Positions 1 to 6,076 of a DNA stretch of 37,768 nucleotides are shown piece after piece. Both the position numbers and the translations under genes were made by a program. Numbering within the stretch: position 1 is the first letter of the stretch; the number at the start of each line of letters is the position of its first letter. The notes below the pieces were generated by a model. That model saw nothing but the letters and a program-made list of their open reading frames with translations. It searched no databases and had not been told where the DNA came from. Source of the DNA: a virus (Duplodnaviria > Heunggongvirae > Uroviricota > Caudoviricetes); the IMG/VR virus record IMGVR_UViG_2526164599_000010; one strand, 5' to 3'.

Positions 1-211
1 ACCAGTGCCACTGACAGCCCCAGTGAAACGCTGGCAGCCACCGCAAAAGCGGTGAAAATTGCGATGGATAATGCCAATGCCCGTCTGGCAAAAGCCGGAA
101 CGGAGCAGATATTCCCAATAAGCCGCTGTTTATCCAAAACGTCGGTTTACAGGAAACGGTAAATCAGGCTTCTGGCGCATTACAGAAAAACCAGAATGGC
201 GCAGATATTCC
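1..211. repeat. Inverted-repeat arm (gin-proximal side) of the invertible tail-fibre segment; mirrors 5499..5710
   Basis: By eye: 1..94 equals the reverse complement of 5617..5710 and 95..185 equals the reverse complement of 5525..5615; a single A is missing between 94/95 relative to the partner; identity decays at 186..211. Repeat reaches the window edge, so true length is unknown. Confidence 0.9.
130..155. other. gix-like recombination site (gixR-like) for a Gin/Hin-family invertase
   Basis: Sequence TTATCCAAAACGTCGGTTTACAGGAA: 26-bp imperfect palindrome with half-sites TTATCCAAAAC / GTTTACAGGAA, matching the recalled gix/hix architecture; identical inverted copy at 5555..5580. Confidence 0.8.
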
Positions 212-772
212 AAACAAAGATAAATTTACGCAAACAATAGGTGCTTGCCGCTCTTTTCATGGTGCTATTAGCACAGGTGCAGGAAACTGGACGACGGCAC
301 AATTGATTGAATGGCTGGATTCTCAAGGGGCATTCAATCACCCATACTGGATGTGCAAATGTTCATGGTCATACGGCAATAATAAAATTATTACCGATAC
401 TGGCTGTGGAACTATTCATCTTGCAGGTTGCGTTATTGAGGTTATGGGTAATAAAGGAGCCATGACCATCCGTGTAACCACCCCGAGCACTTCCAGCGGT
501 GGCGGAATTACTAACGCTCAATTCACTTATATTAATCATGGTGATGCTTATGCTCCTGGCTGGCGACGAGACTACAACACGAAAAACCAGCAGCCTGCAT
601 TTGCTTTAGGGCAAACAGGAAGCACTGTCGGAAATGATAAAGCTGTTGGCTGGAACTGGAATAGCGGGGTCTATAACGCAAATATTGGTGGCGCAACAAC
701 ATTAATCCTACATTTCAATATGAATACGGGGAGCTGCCCTGCTGTACAGTTCCGCGTGAATTACAGGAACGG
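156..772 (+). pseudogene. S': Alternative tail-fibre variable part S'v, 5' fragment (interrupted by IS insertion)
   Basis: Open frame (phase 0) from 72 to the IS junction at 772; same phase relative to gix as Sv on the other arm; track ORF 303..800 is this frame read through into 9 IS-encoded codons. Continues in frame at 2901 once the IS and one ACGG copy are removed. Confidence 0.8.
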
Positions 773-822
773 TGTCAGCGCCAATGATATAAGACAGTAA
801 TTCACCATTTGGATTGTCCGCT
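773..822. repeat. IS21-family left terminal inverted repeat region
   Basis: TGTCAGCGCCAATGAT...CACCATTTGGATTGTCCGCT matches the reverse complement of the right end (TGTCAACGCCAAGAT...CGCCATTTTTAATGTCCGCT). Confidence 0.7.
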
Positions 823-873
823 CCACCCAACATGTTGTTTCCTTAAGGTTCCTACACCACAAAGGGAACACTC

Positions 874-2046
874 ATGCTGAGCAGAGAGGATTTTTACATG
901 ATAAAGCAAATGCGCCAGCAAGGTGCGTATATTGTTGATATTGCCACTCAGGTTGGTTGCTCTGAGCGGACCGTCAGACGGTACCTGAAATACCCGGAAC
1001 CTCCGGCCAGAAAAACACGCCACAAAATGGCCAAACTCAAGCCGTTCATGGACTATATAGATATGCGTCTGGCTGAGAACGTCTGGAACGGCGAGGTCAT
1101 CCTGGCGGAAATCAAAGCGATGGGTTATACCGGTGGCCGTTCCATGTTGCGCTACTACATCCAGCCCAAACGTAAGATGCGGCCATCGAAGAAAACGGTT
1201 CGCTTCGAAACTCAGCCCGGTTACCAGCTACAGCATGACTGGGGAGAAGTTGAGGCTGAGGTTGCCGGGCAACGATGCAGGGTTAACTTCGCGGTTAATA
1301 CGCTGGGGTTCTCACGTCGCTTCCATGTCTTCGCGGCACCAAAGCAGGATGCTGAACATACCTATGAGTCACTGGTCCGCGCCTTTCGCTACTTCGGCGG
1401 TAGCGTGAAAACCGTGCTGGTCGATAACCAGAAAGCCGCAGTTCTGAAAAATAACAATGGGAAGGTGGTGTTCAACTCCGGGTTCCTGCTGCTGGCCGAT
1501 CACTATGGCTTCCTGCCACGGGCCTGCCGTCCACGAAGGGCCAGAACCAAAGGTAAGGTTGAACGGATGGTGAAATACCTCAAGGAAAACTTCTTCGTCC
1601 GGTACCGCCGGTTCGACAGCTTCGCCCATGTTAACCAGCTACTGGAGCAGTGGATGGCTGACGTTGCTGACAGGCGAGAACTTCGCCAGTTCAGGCAGAC
1701 ACCGGAACAGCGCTTCACGCAGGAACAGGAGCATCTGCATCCGCTGCCGGGTACGGACTTCGATACCAGCTATTTCGATATCCGTCATGTCTCCTGGGAT
1801 GGCTATATCGAGGTTGGCGGGAACCGTTACAGCGTACCGGAAAGCCTGTGTGGCCAGCCGGTATCAATACGGATCTCGCTGGATGATGAACTACGGATCT
1901 ACAGTAATGAGCAACAGGTAGCATCGCACCGTCTCTGTTCGGCTGCATCCAGCTGGCAAACCGTGCCGGAGCATCACGCCCCACTCTGGCGGCAGGTCAG
2001 TCAGGTGGAACACAGACCGTTGAGTACGTATGAGGAGCTGTTGTGA
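874..2046 (+). CDS. istA: IS21-family transposase IstA
   Basis: 390-aa ORF with N-terminal HTH-like region (MLSREDFYMIKQMRQQGAYIVDIATQVGCSERTVRRYL) and integrase-core region; stop overlaps the istB ATG (TGATG at 2044..2048). Confidence 0.9.
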   Translation: MLSREDFYMIKQMRQQGAYIVDIATQVGCSERTVRRYLKYPEPPARKTRHKMAKLKPFMDYIDMRLAENVWNGEVILAEIKAMGYTGGRSMLRYYIQPKRKMRPSKKTVRFETQPGYQLQHDWGEVEAEVAGQRCRVNFAVNTLGFSRRFHVFAAPKQDAEHTYESLVRAFRYFGGSVKTVLVDNQKAAVLKNNNGKVVFNSGFLLLADHYGFLPRACRPRRARTKGKVERMVKYLKENFFVRYRRFDSFAHVNQLLEQWMADVADRRELRQFRQTPEQRFTQEQEHLHPLPGTDFDTSYFDIRHVSWDGYIEVGGNRYSVPESLCGQPVSIRISLDDELRIYSNEQQVASHRLCSAASSWQTVPEHHAPLWRQVSQVEHRPLSTYEELL

Positions 2047-3761: not shown

Positions 3762-3781
3762 AAGGCCCGATATCGGGCCTT
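3762..3781. terminator. Bidirectional stem-loop terminator between convergent U' and U at the centre of the invertible segment
   Basis: AAGGCCCGA-TA-TCGGGCCTT perfect 9-bp stem, followed by AATTTTT on the + strand; sits between the U' stop (3756..3758) and the U stop (3787..3789). Confidence 0.7.
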
Positions 3782-3786
3782 AATTT

Positions 3787-4314
3787 TTACTCAGGCTTTT
3801 GTGGCCATTCGGGCTTTGCCGTATCCACACGGCTGACCAGAACGCTGTAGCGCTCCCAGGCTTCCAGTCGTGTACGTTCCTCATCTGTTGCCATATTCAG
3901 CCTGACAGCGCGTTCCAGTGGCTGAATAACGCTTTCCGCTTCGGAAAGTAACGCGGCCTTTTGTGATTCGGCCTGTTGTTGCTGTTCTTCTGCCGTATAA
4001 ATCCGTTTAACCACAGCACCATCCTTAAACATCCATTTACCTGAGTCGTCAGCACGTCGGTTGGAGGTAATATCAGGAACCTCAACAACGCTAAAACCTT
4101 CAGGATTAAGCGTTGAAGCATCTCTGGTGATAGCGACAATAATATTATTTTCATCGTAAACAATCTTTATTGTGTCTGACTGAAAGTTCTTCACTTCCTC
4201 ATACCAGTTTTTCCCGTCTTCAGTGTAAAGCCAGATGACTCCATGCTTCTTTGTTAACTCATACTGTTCCAGTGTTTTAGCGTTACCCGCTTTTATGTTC
4301 TTTAAGTGCATCAT
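3787..4314 (-). CDS. U: Tail-fibre assembly protein U
   Basis: 175-aa ORF; immediately downstream of S; paralogous to U'. Confidence 0.85.
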
Positions 4315-4315
4315 A

Positions 4316-6076
4316 TTAAACGCTCGCTACATTATACCATGTGCCATTTATATACTTTTGAACGGGTCTGTAATAAACACCCGCAATATTATCGGCGGAG
4401 TTGGAACCTGTATCCTGAACATTTATACCAGACAATACATGACCTGAAGGGCACTGGAAGTTCCATGTTTGCCAGTTGTTCACACCATAATATTGCTGTG
4501 AGCCAAGCCGAACATCTTTCACATATCTGGAATCAATGTTACCCCAGTTGCTTGGTTGTATCTGACCGTTTACAGCAAATGTCACCGAGTTATCTGTATT
4601 TCGCTGACTATAGAAATGCCAGCCTGAATCATCACCAAGCTCTGCAACAGTTGGTCTTGACGAATTTCCCCACAAGTTAAATGATGCATTACGGGCAGCG
4701 GTATTTGCACTTGAAAGTGTGAAGAACTTACTTTCCCCAGCCTGAATACCCTTTAATGATCTTGCTGAACCATTTATAAAGCGGAATACATGCACACCAT
4801 TAGCATAAGCATCCAGCACCCCATCACCATTTTGTTTAAACCCGGTATCGTTATCTCCTAAAACTATTGAATTGCCACCCAGGGCATTAGCCGTTCCAAT
4901 CCCCAGATTTCCGCTAAAAATGGCATTAATACCGAATATTGAGTGAGAACAATAAAACCCTCGCCCATTGTTAAAATCCAGAATAGCTTGTGCGTTCGTG
5001 CTTTCTGTCGCGGGATTAGTTGCTCCCCACTTATATGTTGTTTGACCGACAGTATAATCCTGAGTTGGAACAATAACCGTTAGCCCTTCTTCAGCAGAAA
5101 CCCGCACAGGAAAAGCCCTGCCTTCAACGTAAAAAACGCTGCATACATCATCTTCTTTAAGGCTTGTTACAATGGAATGGATTGCGCGCTCATTAGTCTG
5201 ATACGTCGAAAAATAACCTGCCGCATATGAACCACGATCAGTCCAGCCACCAGGCATTACCATTCCATTGAATTCGCAGTTATTCATTGCGTAATCACCA
5301 CTGGCAGATGTGGTCGTTATAATCACTCTGGAAGCCAGCTCGCCAGTGCTGCCTGTGGAACGCCGGAAAATAACTGGATACCACTTTCCACCAACTGCAT
5401 TAGACGGCGCATTAAATGCGTACTGCCGCATTCCTTTTTTCTTATCCACCTCGCCTTTGCTGTAAACATTAATGTTACTCAGGAAGCGATCCTTATCAGG
5501 AATATCCGCGCCGTTCTGGTTTTTTTGTAATGCGCCAGAAGCCTGATTTACCGTTTCCTGTAAACCGACGTTTTGGATAAACAGCGGCTTATTGGGAATA
5601 TCTGCTCCGTTCCGGTCTTTTGCCAGACGGGCATTGGCATTATCCATCGCAATTTTCACCGCTTTTGCGGTGGCTGCCAGCGTTTCACTGGGGCTGTCAG
5701 TGGCACTGGTTAGCTGAACGAGTCCTTTTTTGTTCAGGCTGGCATCATAGATATCCAGATTTTCACGTGCTGTACGCTGTGCTGATGCCCCGGCAGTTTT
5801 AATTTCGCTGAGGTTATTTTTTATCAGCAGCGCGTTATTGCTCATAATGGCTTTAATGGACAGTGCAAGCTGGTTTAATTTTGTTTTATCCGGTTGAATA
5901 CCGGCTTCTTCCAGCGTGTTTAATAACTCCGCCTGCACAATATTAAACCAGTCCATGCCGGGCCATGTGATAACATTATTCCCGTCACCTTCTGAAAACC
6001 AGCGAACGATAGCACTACGCTGGGCGGATACGGGCGGCATGACGGTTACGCCGCTGTCGTTATCAATATAAAACAT
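4316..6076 (-). CDS. S: Tail fibre protein S (constant part Sc fused to variable part Sv across the gix site; the S-U expressing orientation)
   Basis: 586-aa ORF running continuously through gixL (5555..5580); N-terminus [26 protein letters not shown]; Gly/Asn-rich C-terminal region typical of fibre tips. Confidence 0.85.
5499..5710. repeat. Inverted-repeat arm (S side) of the invertible segment; partner of 1..211
   Basis: See the 1..211 entry; this copy keeps the S reading frame intact. Confidence 0.9.
5555..5580. other. gix-like recombination site (gixL-like) inside the S coding sequence
   Basis: TTCCTGTAAACCGACGTTTTGGATAA, exact reverse complement of the site at 130..155. Confidence 0.8.

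What the first reader, a model, noticed from the sequence alone, without database searches (positions are those of the whole stretch)
130..5580. Invertible segment is in the S-U expressing orientation, and inversion would yield a truncated fibre
S (4316..6076) is continuous across gixL and followed by U, so the assembled orientation expresses the S/U fibre. Because S'v carries the IS, Gin-mediated inversion would fuse Sc to a S'v fragment that terminates 9 codons into the IS. About half of an inverting population would then make particles without a functional fibre, unless inversion is also lost.
Basis: inference. Interest (0 to 1): 0.5.

Follow-up and report, generated by a model that had tools for sequence, protein, structure and literature searches.

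The report
IS-disrupted silent fibre gene in Mu prophage
This is the invertible tail-fibre (G) segment of an otherwise intact phage Mu prophage in an E. coli draft genome. A common insertion sequence has broken the currently silent fibre gene, so flipping the segment would give a truncated fibre: an ordinary case of prophage decay, not a new mechanism.

Summary
Two identical 26-bp gix sites lie at 130-155 and 5555-5580. S (4316-6076, minus strand) reads through the right-hand gix and is followed by U. The silent S'v is split by a 2,124-bp ISEc62-like IS21-family element (773-2896, 4-bp duplication ACGG). After inversion, Sc would fuse to a 388-aa product (380 native residues plus VSANDIRQ) instead of a 486-aa S'.

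- The window starts 2 nt from the end of a contig of E. coli DEC13D (AIHI01000017.1), so gin, com, mom and attR simply cannot be seen.
- Bases 1-129 are not the gin flank. They are an inverted copy of Sc, which is the Sc-gix-S'v junction of the flipped isomer. The contig therefore mixes both orientations. This suggests inversion was occurring in the sequenced culture, although misassembly is not excluded.
- Wild-type Mu G(-) particles already fail to plate on K-12, so the loss concerns only the alternative host range.
- The prophage should total about 39.7 kb. That is above Mu's usual headful (about 38.3 kb), so the right end may often not be packaged, whatever the orientation.

The same IS junction occurs in sister assemblies. 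Low interest; a new member of a known kind.

The parts
1..129 (+). Inverted copy of the 3' part of Sc, at the contig end. This is the Sc side of a G(-)-type Sc-gix-S'v junction. It carries a 1-nt deletion near position 94, which shifts the frame.
   Evidence: 1-94 and 95-185 are identical to the reverse complement of 5525-5710, apart from one missing A; window position 1 is contig position 3 of AIHI01000017.1; the Mu gin flank outside gixR is a different sequence.
130..155 (+). Left gix site (TTATCCAAAACGTCGGTTTACAGGAA).
   Evidence: exactly two copies in the window, none in shuffles. One base differs from Mu gix.
156..772 (+). 5' part of the silent variable fibre segment S'v.
   Evidence: tblastn with Mu S'v residues 3-222 covers 120-773 at 83% identity; the restored S'v is 88% identical to Mu S'v.
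769..772 (.). Left copy of the 4-bp target-site duplication ACGG.
   Evidence: An ISEc62 copy in E24377A likewise has a 4-bp duplication (AAGA).
773..2896 (+). ISEc62-like IS21-family insertion sequence (2,124 bp), in the same direction as S'v and U'.
   Evidence: 100% coverage at 99.9% identity to copies annotated as ISEc62; ends TGTCAGCGCC...GGCGTTGACA; only one substitution (1991) and one missing A (2129) relative to the E24377A copy.
874..2046 (+). istA (IS21-family transposase, 390 aa).
   Evidence: NF033546, 283 bits against a cut-off of 160.
2046..2839 (+). istB (helper ATPase). It is frameshifted in this record by an A6-to-A5 change at 2129, and the long ORF resumes at 2162.
   Evidence: Gene calls split it into 31 aa and 225 aa.
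2897..2900 (.). Right copy of the target-site duplication ACGG.
2901..3222 (+). 3' part of S'v (106 codons and the stop), cut off from its 5' part by the IS.
   Evidence: Mu S'v residues 221-328 match 2896-3219 at 97%; excising the IS restores a 486-aa S'.
3225..3758 (+). U' (fibre assembly chaperone of the silent set).
   Evidence: 98% identical to Mu U'. PF02413.
3762..3781 (.). Palindromic GC-rich hairpin between the convergent U' and U genes. It looks like a terminator in both directions.
   Evidence: pattern scan only.
3787..4314 (-). U (fibre assembly chaperone of the expressed set).
   Evidence: 89% identical to Mu U.
4316..5554 (-). Sv, the variable part of the expressed fibre. It differs from Mu Sv; only the last ~96 aa are 46% identical.
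   Evidence: the cluster holding this S protein has 314 members in E. coli, Shigella and Salmonella.
5555..5580 (-). Right gix site, inside the S reading frame.
5581..6076 (-). Sc, the constant N-terminal part of the fibre gene, outside the invertible segment.
   Evidence: 97% identical to Mu S over residues 1-186.

Best explanation
Positions 130-5580 are the Gin-type invertible G segment of a phage Mu prophage in E. coli DEC13D. It is assembled with Sc joined to Sv-U, which is the G(+)-like, S/U-expressing arrangement. An ISEc62-like IS21-family element inserted into the silent S'v, made a 4-bp duplication and split the gene.

If Gin exchanges the two gix sites, Sc is joined to the 5' part of S'v, and translation stops 8 codons into the IS. 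The result is a 388-aa S' without its last 106 residues. U' then lies behind 2.1 kb of IS DNA. G(-) particles would therefore lack the alternative fibre, and one arm of the host-range switch is dead.

gin itself is not visible, because the contig stops 131 nt outside the left gix. Those last bases are Sc, not the gin flank. The contig therefore carries the G(+) junction at one end of the segment and the G(-) junction at the other. The most likely cause is that the sequenced culture held both isomers, meaning inversion is active.

Shown here: the anatomy, the truncated product, the contig end, and the presence of the right-hand IS junction in related assemblies.
Inferred: loss of fibre function, polarity on U', active inversion, and a packaging problem from the ~39.7-kb length.
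For: - Mu identity: 97.8% nucleotide identity to Mu over 24.9 kb. Every Mu protein from c to gp48 except gp6 and gp7 is matched at full length.
- gix sites and ORFs. Homology of Sc, S'v, U' and U to Mu.
- IS: 99.9% identical to ISEc62 copies, with exact ends and a 4-bp duplication; excision in silico restores a 486-aa S'.
- Source and contig end.
- Left end is inverted Sc. The corresponding flank in Mu and in complete E. coli genomes is gin.
- The right IS/S'v junction is present in further data sets. AIHJ01000004.1 and two Logan contigs extend into the IS. AIHH01000006.1 begins right at the junction, at 2901.
- Contig-end overhangs differ in length: 131 nt beyond gix in DEC13D, 92 nt beyond gix and 404 nt into the IS in AIHJ01000004.1. 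This fits read overhangs rather than a fixed k-mer overlap.
- Literature: induced Mu lysates hold G(+) and G(-) in equal ratio; G(-) infects hosts other than K-12; the C-terminal part determines host recognition (PMC4406740).
Against: - No reads were available, so the mixture of isomers is inferred from one contig end. That end carries a 1-nt deletion and probably rests on very few reads.
- The inverted repeat is exact for 56 nt (130-185). An assembler working with short words could therefore have made the Sc-gix-S'v join without any G(-) molecule.
- gin was not found and could not be searched for in the other contigs of the assembly.
- No experiment shows that the 388-aa product is non-functional or that U' is silenced.
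- The sequencing platform and assembler of this record could not be verified, because the genome announcement is not in the library.
Confidence: 0.75

Rival explanations
1. Pure assembly misjoin. The culture held only the G(+) isomer, and the assembler walked out of S'v through the shared inverted repeat into Sc reads from the other end of the segment. The orientation would then be fixed as assembled, and nothing can be said about Gin activity.
For: - The two arms are identical over 130-185, so a repeat of at least 56 nt has to be bridged.
- Logan contigs built with short words stop exactly at the repeat, at 5555.
- The terminal stretch has a 1-nt deletion, a sign of poor support.
- G segments often come out as separate ~3-kb contigs in draft assemblies.
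Against: - The overhangs at contig ends differ in length (131, 92 and 404 nt). A 404-nt overhang into the IS implies reads much longer than the 56-nt repeat, and such reads would bridge it correctly.
- The sister contig AIHJ01000004.1 also breaks just outside gix on the Sv side. This is expected if reads conflict there.
Confidence: 0.17
2. Real rearrangement. In this genome the DNA outside the left gix really is an inverted partial duplicate of Sc, and gin, com, mom and attR have been lost or moved. The segment can then no longer invert, and the prophage is a fixed remnant.
For: - The window shows Sc on both sides of the segment.
- gin, com and mom are absent from the window.
- The 1-nt deletion would make the left Sc copy a pseudogene fragment.
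Against: - The sequence stops at a contig end after only 131 nt, which is typical of an assembly break rather than a mapped structure.
- The copy is otherwise 100% identical to Sc.
- All other Mu genes are intact.
- Complete genomes with this kind of prophage always have gin-com-mom next to gix.
Confidence: 0.06
3. The IS is not really inside S'v. A multi-copy IS was placed there by the assembler.
For: ISEc62 is multi-copy in E. coli, with up to 18 places per genome. Repeats are a common cause of misjoins.
Against: - The ends are precise, a 4-bp duplication flanks the element, and its removal restores an uninterrupted Mu-like S'.
- The same right junction was assembled independently in AIHJ01000004.1 and in two Logan run assemblies. 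AIHH01000006.1 starts exactly after the duplication.
Confidence: 0.02

Closest known systems
G segment and Gin invertase of phage Mu (also D108)
   Same: - Same prophage type, 97.8% nucleotide identity to Mu.
- Same layout: Sc outside the segment; Sv-U and U'-S'v convergent inside; 26-bp gix sites at the Sc/Sv boundary.
- Close protein matches to Mu: U' 98%, U 89%, S'v 88%, Sc 97%.
   Different: - Sv is a different, longer variant: S is 586 aa against 504 aa in Mu.
- The segment is 5,451 bp against 3,084 bp, because of the IS (2,128 bp with the duplication) and the longer Sv.
- gix has G instead of C next to the central dinucleotide.
- S'v is broken.
- gin is not visible.
Shigella phage SfMu
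   Same: It is a Mu relative whose record has Sc joined to the S' homologue. It matches window 1-4536 on the + strand, that is the junction seen at the window's left end. Its authors also discuss a 1-bp gix difference next to the crossover bases and a possible loss of inversion (PMC4406740).
   Different: In SfMu both fibre genes are intact, and it is an infectious phage. Here one fibre gene is interrupted.
C segment and Cin invertase of phage P1 and P7
   Same: It is a homologous invertible cassette with Sv'/U' about 90% identical at the nucleotide level to window 172-4360. The logic of a constant Sc plus alternative variable ends and chaperones is the same (bioRxiv 10.1101/2022.07.24.501295).
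   Different: The phage is different, its Sc is much longer, and it uses cix sites and Cin.
ISEc62 (IS21 family)
   Same: 99.9% identity over the whole 2,124 bp, with an istA-istB pair, TGTCA... ends and a 4-bp duplication.
   Different: This copy has one substitution in istA and an A6-to-A5 frameshift in istB. The frameshift may be a sequencing error.

Membership tests
Mu-type invertible tail-fibre segment (G/gix/Gin) | Two gix sites in inverted orientation that match the 26-bp Mu consensus. | tested here: met
   exactly two sites at 130-155 (+) and 5555-5580 (-), each differing from Mu gix at 1 of 26 bases; 0 expected by chance.
Mu-type invertible tail-fibre segment (G/gix/Gin) | A constant fibre part (Sc) outside the segment, and two alternative variable parts with their chaperones in convergent orientation inside it. 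| tested here: met
   Sc 97%, S'v (restored) 88%, U' 98% and U 89% identical to Mu. Sv is of another type.
Mu-type invertible tail-fibre segment (G/gix/Gin) | An adjacent serine invertase gene (gin) with its enhancer next to the gix site distal to Sc. | tested here: inconclusive
   tblastn with Mu Gin finds no match in the window. However, the contig ends 131 nt outside gix. The other contigs of the assembly cannot be reached with these tools.
Mu-type invertible tail-fibre segment (G/gix/Gin) | Both orientations occur in a population. | tested here: inconclusive
   the contig carries Sc-gix-Sv at one end of the segment and Sc-gix-S'v at the other. No reads were available to count junctions.
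Muvirus prophage | Collinear Mu gene set: c, ner, A, B, early region, C, lysis, head and tail genes. | tested here: met
   98% coverage at 97.8% identity; full-length matches for all Mu proteins from c to gp48 except gp6 and gp7.
Muvirus prophage | Both transposon ends (attL, attR) flanked by a 5-bp host duplication. | not testable with these tools
   The window ends at the c stop codon, which corresponds to Mu position 339, and it starts at a contig end. The right end is on another contig.
IS21 family (ISEc62) | IstA transposase and IstB helper ATPase in tandem, terminal inverted repeats, and a short target duplication. | tested here: met
   NF033546 at 283 bits and NF038214 at 271 bits, both above their cut-offs; 99.9% identity to annotated ISEc62, with ACGG duplicated. 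istB is frameshifted in this record.

The most novel reading that the evidence does not exclude
The Sc-gix-G-gix-Sc arrangement is a real structure in the DEC13 lineage: a G segment bracketed by two inverted Sc copies, with gin lost. This would be a frozen, rearranged Mu remnant rather than a switching prophage. A milder variant: the IS insertion has been kept for long enough in a lineage with active Gin to act as a natural one-armed switch, in which half of the progeny are sacrificed.
Probability: 0.07. Interest if true: 0.3.

Novelty: new member of a known kind. Interest (0 to 1): 0.15.

Why it matters
Scientifically it matters little. It is a natural example of one arm of a phage host-range switch being knocked out by a common insertion sequence, in a prophage that is otherwise intact and is shared by related strains. 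It adds nothing to the mechanism of Gin inversion.

The practical lesson concerns reading draft genomes. The orientation of an invertible segment in a contig is a snapshot, and a contig that ends just outside an inversion site can carry the junction of the other isomer. An apparently missing invertase gene or an odd duplicated flank should be checked against contig ends before it is interpreted.

Tried and rejected
1. No paper in the library mentions AIHI01 or GCA_000250375. The one hit was an unrelated accession that contains the same letters.
2. Three papers could not be read because they are not held: the DEC collection genome announcement (PMC3370608), Bukhari and Taylor 1975 (PMC388729) and PMC4486318, tried as the id of a Mu review. 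The sequencing platform and the classical insertion/packaging result therefore rest on my own knowledge and on PMC7350765.
3. I tried to find sister contigs holding the left gix and its outer flank through exact look-ups. The IS-specific IstA allele and the 165-aa S'v::IS ORF both occur only on the DEC13D contig.
4. I decided not to search for Gin homologues in the large protein database. Mu-type Gin alleles would probably fall into one 90% cluster, look-ups are by exact sequence, and at most 10 places are shown, longest contigs first. The DEC13D gin contig would almost certainly not have surfaced.
5. The promoter and terminator scan of 1-6200 gave counts no higher than in shuffles. Only the U'/U hairpin is worth noting, so polarity of the IS on U' remains an inference.
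6. No complete E. coli genome of 5,426, and no phage record, carries the same IS insertion: no place covers at least 80% of window 1-6100.
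Full report
**What the window is.** The window is a phage Mu prophage read on its reverse strand. Window 6100-31000 matches Mu at 97.8% identity over 98% of its length. A tblastn search with all annotated Mu proteins finds full-length, unbroken matches for everything from the repressor c (37244-37765) to gp48 (6079-6618). The exceptions are gp6 and gp7, which have no match, and Gin, Com and Mom, which also have no match. An exact look-up of the S protein places the window on contig AIHI01000017.1 (413 kb) of assembly GCA_000250375.2, named E. coli DEC13D by the source. Window position 1 is position 3 of that contig. The window's other end is the stop codon of c, which corresponds to Mu position 339.

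**Check of the observation.** The sequence TTATCCAAAACGTCGGTTTACAGGAA occurs exactly twice, at 130-155 (+) and 5555-5580 (-), and never in shuffled sequence. It differs from Mu gix by one base, a G for a C next to the central dinucleotide.

- S (4316-6076, minus strand, 586 aa) is open across the right-hand gix. Its first 186 residues are 97% identical to Mu S. The rest is a different variable part, with only the last ~96 residues 46% identical.
- U follows one base after the S stop and is 89% identical to Mu U.
- On the other strand lie U' (3225-3758), 98% identical to Mu U', and upstream of it S'v.
- S'v is interrupted at 772/773 by a 2,124-bp element that is 99.9% identical to copies annotated as ISEc62, IS21 family, in E24377A and other strains. 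It has istA and istB, ends TGTCAGCGCC...GGCGTTGACA, and a 4-bp duplication ACGG. An E24377A copy likewise has a 4-bp duplication.
- Joining Sc to S'v in silico gives a 388-aa product ending in RNG-VSANDIRQ-stop.
- Removing the IS and one ACGG gives a 486-aa S' whose variable part is 88% identical to Mu S'v, and almost identical over the last two thirds.

The 129 bases outside the left gix are not the gin flank that Mu and complete E. coli genomes have at this place. They are the reverse complement of Sc (5581-5710), identical except for one missing A near position 94. The segment is thus bracketed by Sc on both sides in this record: Sc-gix-Sv on the right and Sc-gix-S'v on the left. No single Mu molecule looks like this. 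A G(+) molecule has gin at the left, and a G(-) molecule has gin at the right. Because the sequence stops 131 nt beyond gix at a contig end, the simplest reading is that the contig end was built from one or a few reads of the flipped isomer.

**Evidence from related data sets.** The exact U' allele occurs on only five contigs. One is the DEC13D contig itself; the other four are listed below.

| Contig | Source | Window span | Note |
|---|---|---|---|
| AIHJ01000004.1 | neighbouring NCBI accession | 2493-5672 | starts 404 nt inside the IS, ends 92 nt into Sc |
| AIHH01000006.1 | neighbouring NCBI accession | 2901-4587 | starts exactly after the duplication |
| SRR096912_320 | Logan run assembly | 2869-5555 | starts 28 nt inside the IS, stops at gix |
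| SRR096913_362 | Logan run assembly | 2869-3919 | starts 28 nt inside the IS |

Two things follow.

1. The right IS/S'v junction is real and shared by related strains. The insertion is therefore inherited, not an artefact.
2. The overhangs at the contig ends of the NCBI assemblies vary in length (131, 92 and 404 nt). This looks like read overhangs from long reads, not fixed word overlaps.

Reads of that length would bridge the 56-nt exact repeat (130-185). The Sc-gix-S'v join is then more likely a real molecule than a misjoin. The break of AIHJ01000004.1 just outside gix is what conflicting reads would cause. I could not verify the sequencing platform, because the genome announcement is not held. 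I therefore keep a pure misjoin at about 17% and a real rearrangement with loss of gin at about 6%.

**Mechanism and consequences.** Established knowledge of Mu is as follows (PMC4406740 and the references in it).

- Gin exchanges the gix sites, so that Sc is joined either to Sv (with U) or to S'v (with U').
- Induced lysates hold the two kinds of particles in about equal numbers.
- G(+) particles infect E. coli K-12. [quoted passage not shown]
- The variable C-terminal part determines host recognition. The same holds for the homologous P1 system (bioRxiv 10.1101/2022.07.24.501295).

Here the G(-) product would lack its last 106 residues. U' would also lie behind 2.1 kb of IS DNA, and no usable start codon precedes the 3' fragment of S'v in its own frame. 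My inference is that G(-) particles are made without a working fibre, so the alternative host range is lost.

G(-) particles of wild-type Mu are already non-infective on K-12, so a comparison of plating efficiency on such a host would show no difference.

This point is an inference. The window from gix to the c stop is 37,639 bp. Adding the missing 338 bp at the left end and about 1,680 bp for gin-com-mom-attR, as in Mu, gives about 39.66 kb against 36.72 kb for Mu. Mu is packaged by the headful, with on average 100 bp of host DNA at the left and 1.5 kb at the right (PMC7350765), which is about 38.3 kb. From my own knowledge of Bukhari and Taylor 1975 (cited there but not readable here), insertions shorten the right-hand host DNA by their own length. 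A 39.7-kb prophage would therefore often be cut before attR. That would impair infectivity in both orientations.

**Comparison with what is known, and novelty.** This is the Mu G/Gin system, with the P1 C/Cin segment and SfMu as close relatives, carrying an insertion of a known IS. The defining features that could be tested are met: the gix pair, the Sc/Sv/S'v/U/U' layout, the Mu gene set, and the IS21 hallmarks. The adjacent invertase and the presence of both orientations remain inconclusive for lack of sequence beyond the contig end. No complete E. coli genome (5,426 searched) and no phage record has the same insertion. It is thus a new instance, but of a familiar kind of prophage decay.

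**Verdict.** Interest is low (0.15).

Noticed in passing
window 2124-2129 (istB): The IS copy has A5 where the E24377A ISEc62 copy has A6. This frameshifts istB into a 31-aa and a 225-aa ORF. It is either a real inactivating mutation or a homopolymer sequencing error.
   Followed up: partly
window 90-95: The inverted Sc copy at the contig end lacks one A (AAAGCCGG against AAAGACCGG at 5617-5620). The sister contig AIHJ01000004.1 has the A in its Sc overhang. This is probably a low-coverage error at the contig end.
   Followed up: partly
window 1991 (istA): There is a single G/A substitution relative to other ISEc62 copies. The resulting IstA protein is found on no other contig in the 15-billion-protein collection.
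   Followed up: partly
L008 (AIHJ01000004.1), L010 (AIHH01000006.1), L009 and L011 (Logan SRR096912, SRR096913): The same U' allele and the same IS/S'v right junction occur in two assemblies with neighbouring accession numbers and in two run assemblies. The prophage with its IS is therefore shared by related strains. The strain names were not verified.
   Followed up: partly
L003 3001-3026 and 6085-6110; L004 3131-3156 and around 6430-6455: In complete E. coli genomes with Mu-like prophages, the two gix sites differ from each other in the outer half-site (TTATCTAAAACC or TTATCTGAAACC next to gin, against TTATCCAAAACG or TTATCCAAAACC next to Sc). In the window both visible gix copies carry the Sc-side half-site, as expected if the left one came from a G(-) junction.
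   Followed up: partly
window 30145-30468 (-): There is an extra 107-aa ORF between the homologues of Mu gp13 and gp14, which are adjacent in Mu.
   Followed up: no
window 33046-33571: Mu gp6 and gp7 have no match. The space between kil and gp8 holds unrelated ORFs of similar total length, for example 33348-33560 and 33067-33336.
   Followed up: no
window 3762-3781: A perfect 8-bp-stem palindromic hairpin (AAGGCCCGATATCGGGCCTT) sits between the convergent U' and U genes. It looks like a terminator in both directions, at the centre of the invertible segment.
   Followed up: no
cluster members: Many relatives of Sv and S'v sit on stand-alone contigs of about 3.0 kb in draft assemblies of E. coli, Shigella and Salmonella. 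Invertible fibre segments are thus routinely assembled as separate contigs bounded by their inverted repeats.
   Followed up: no
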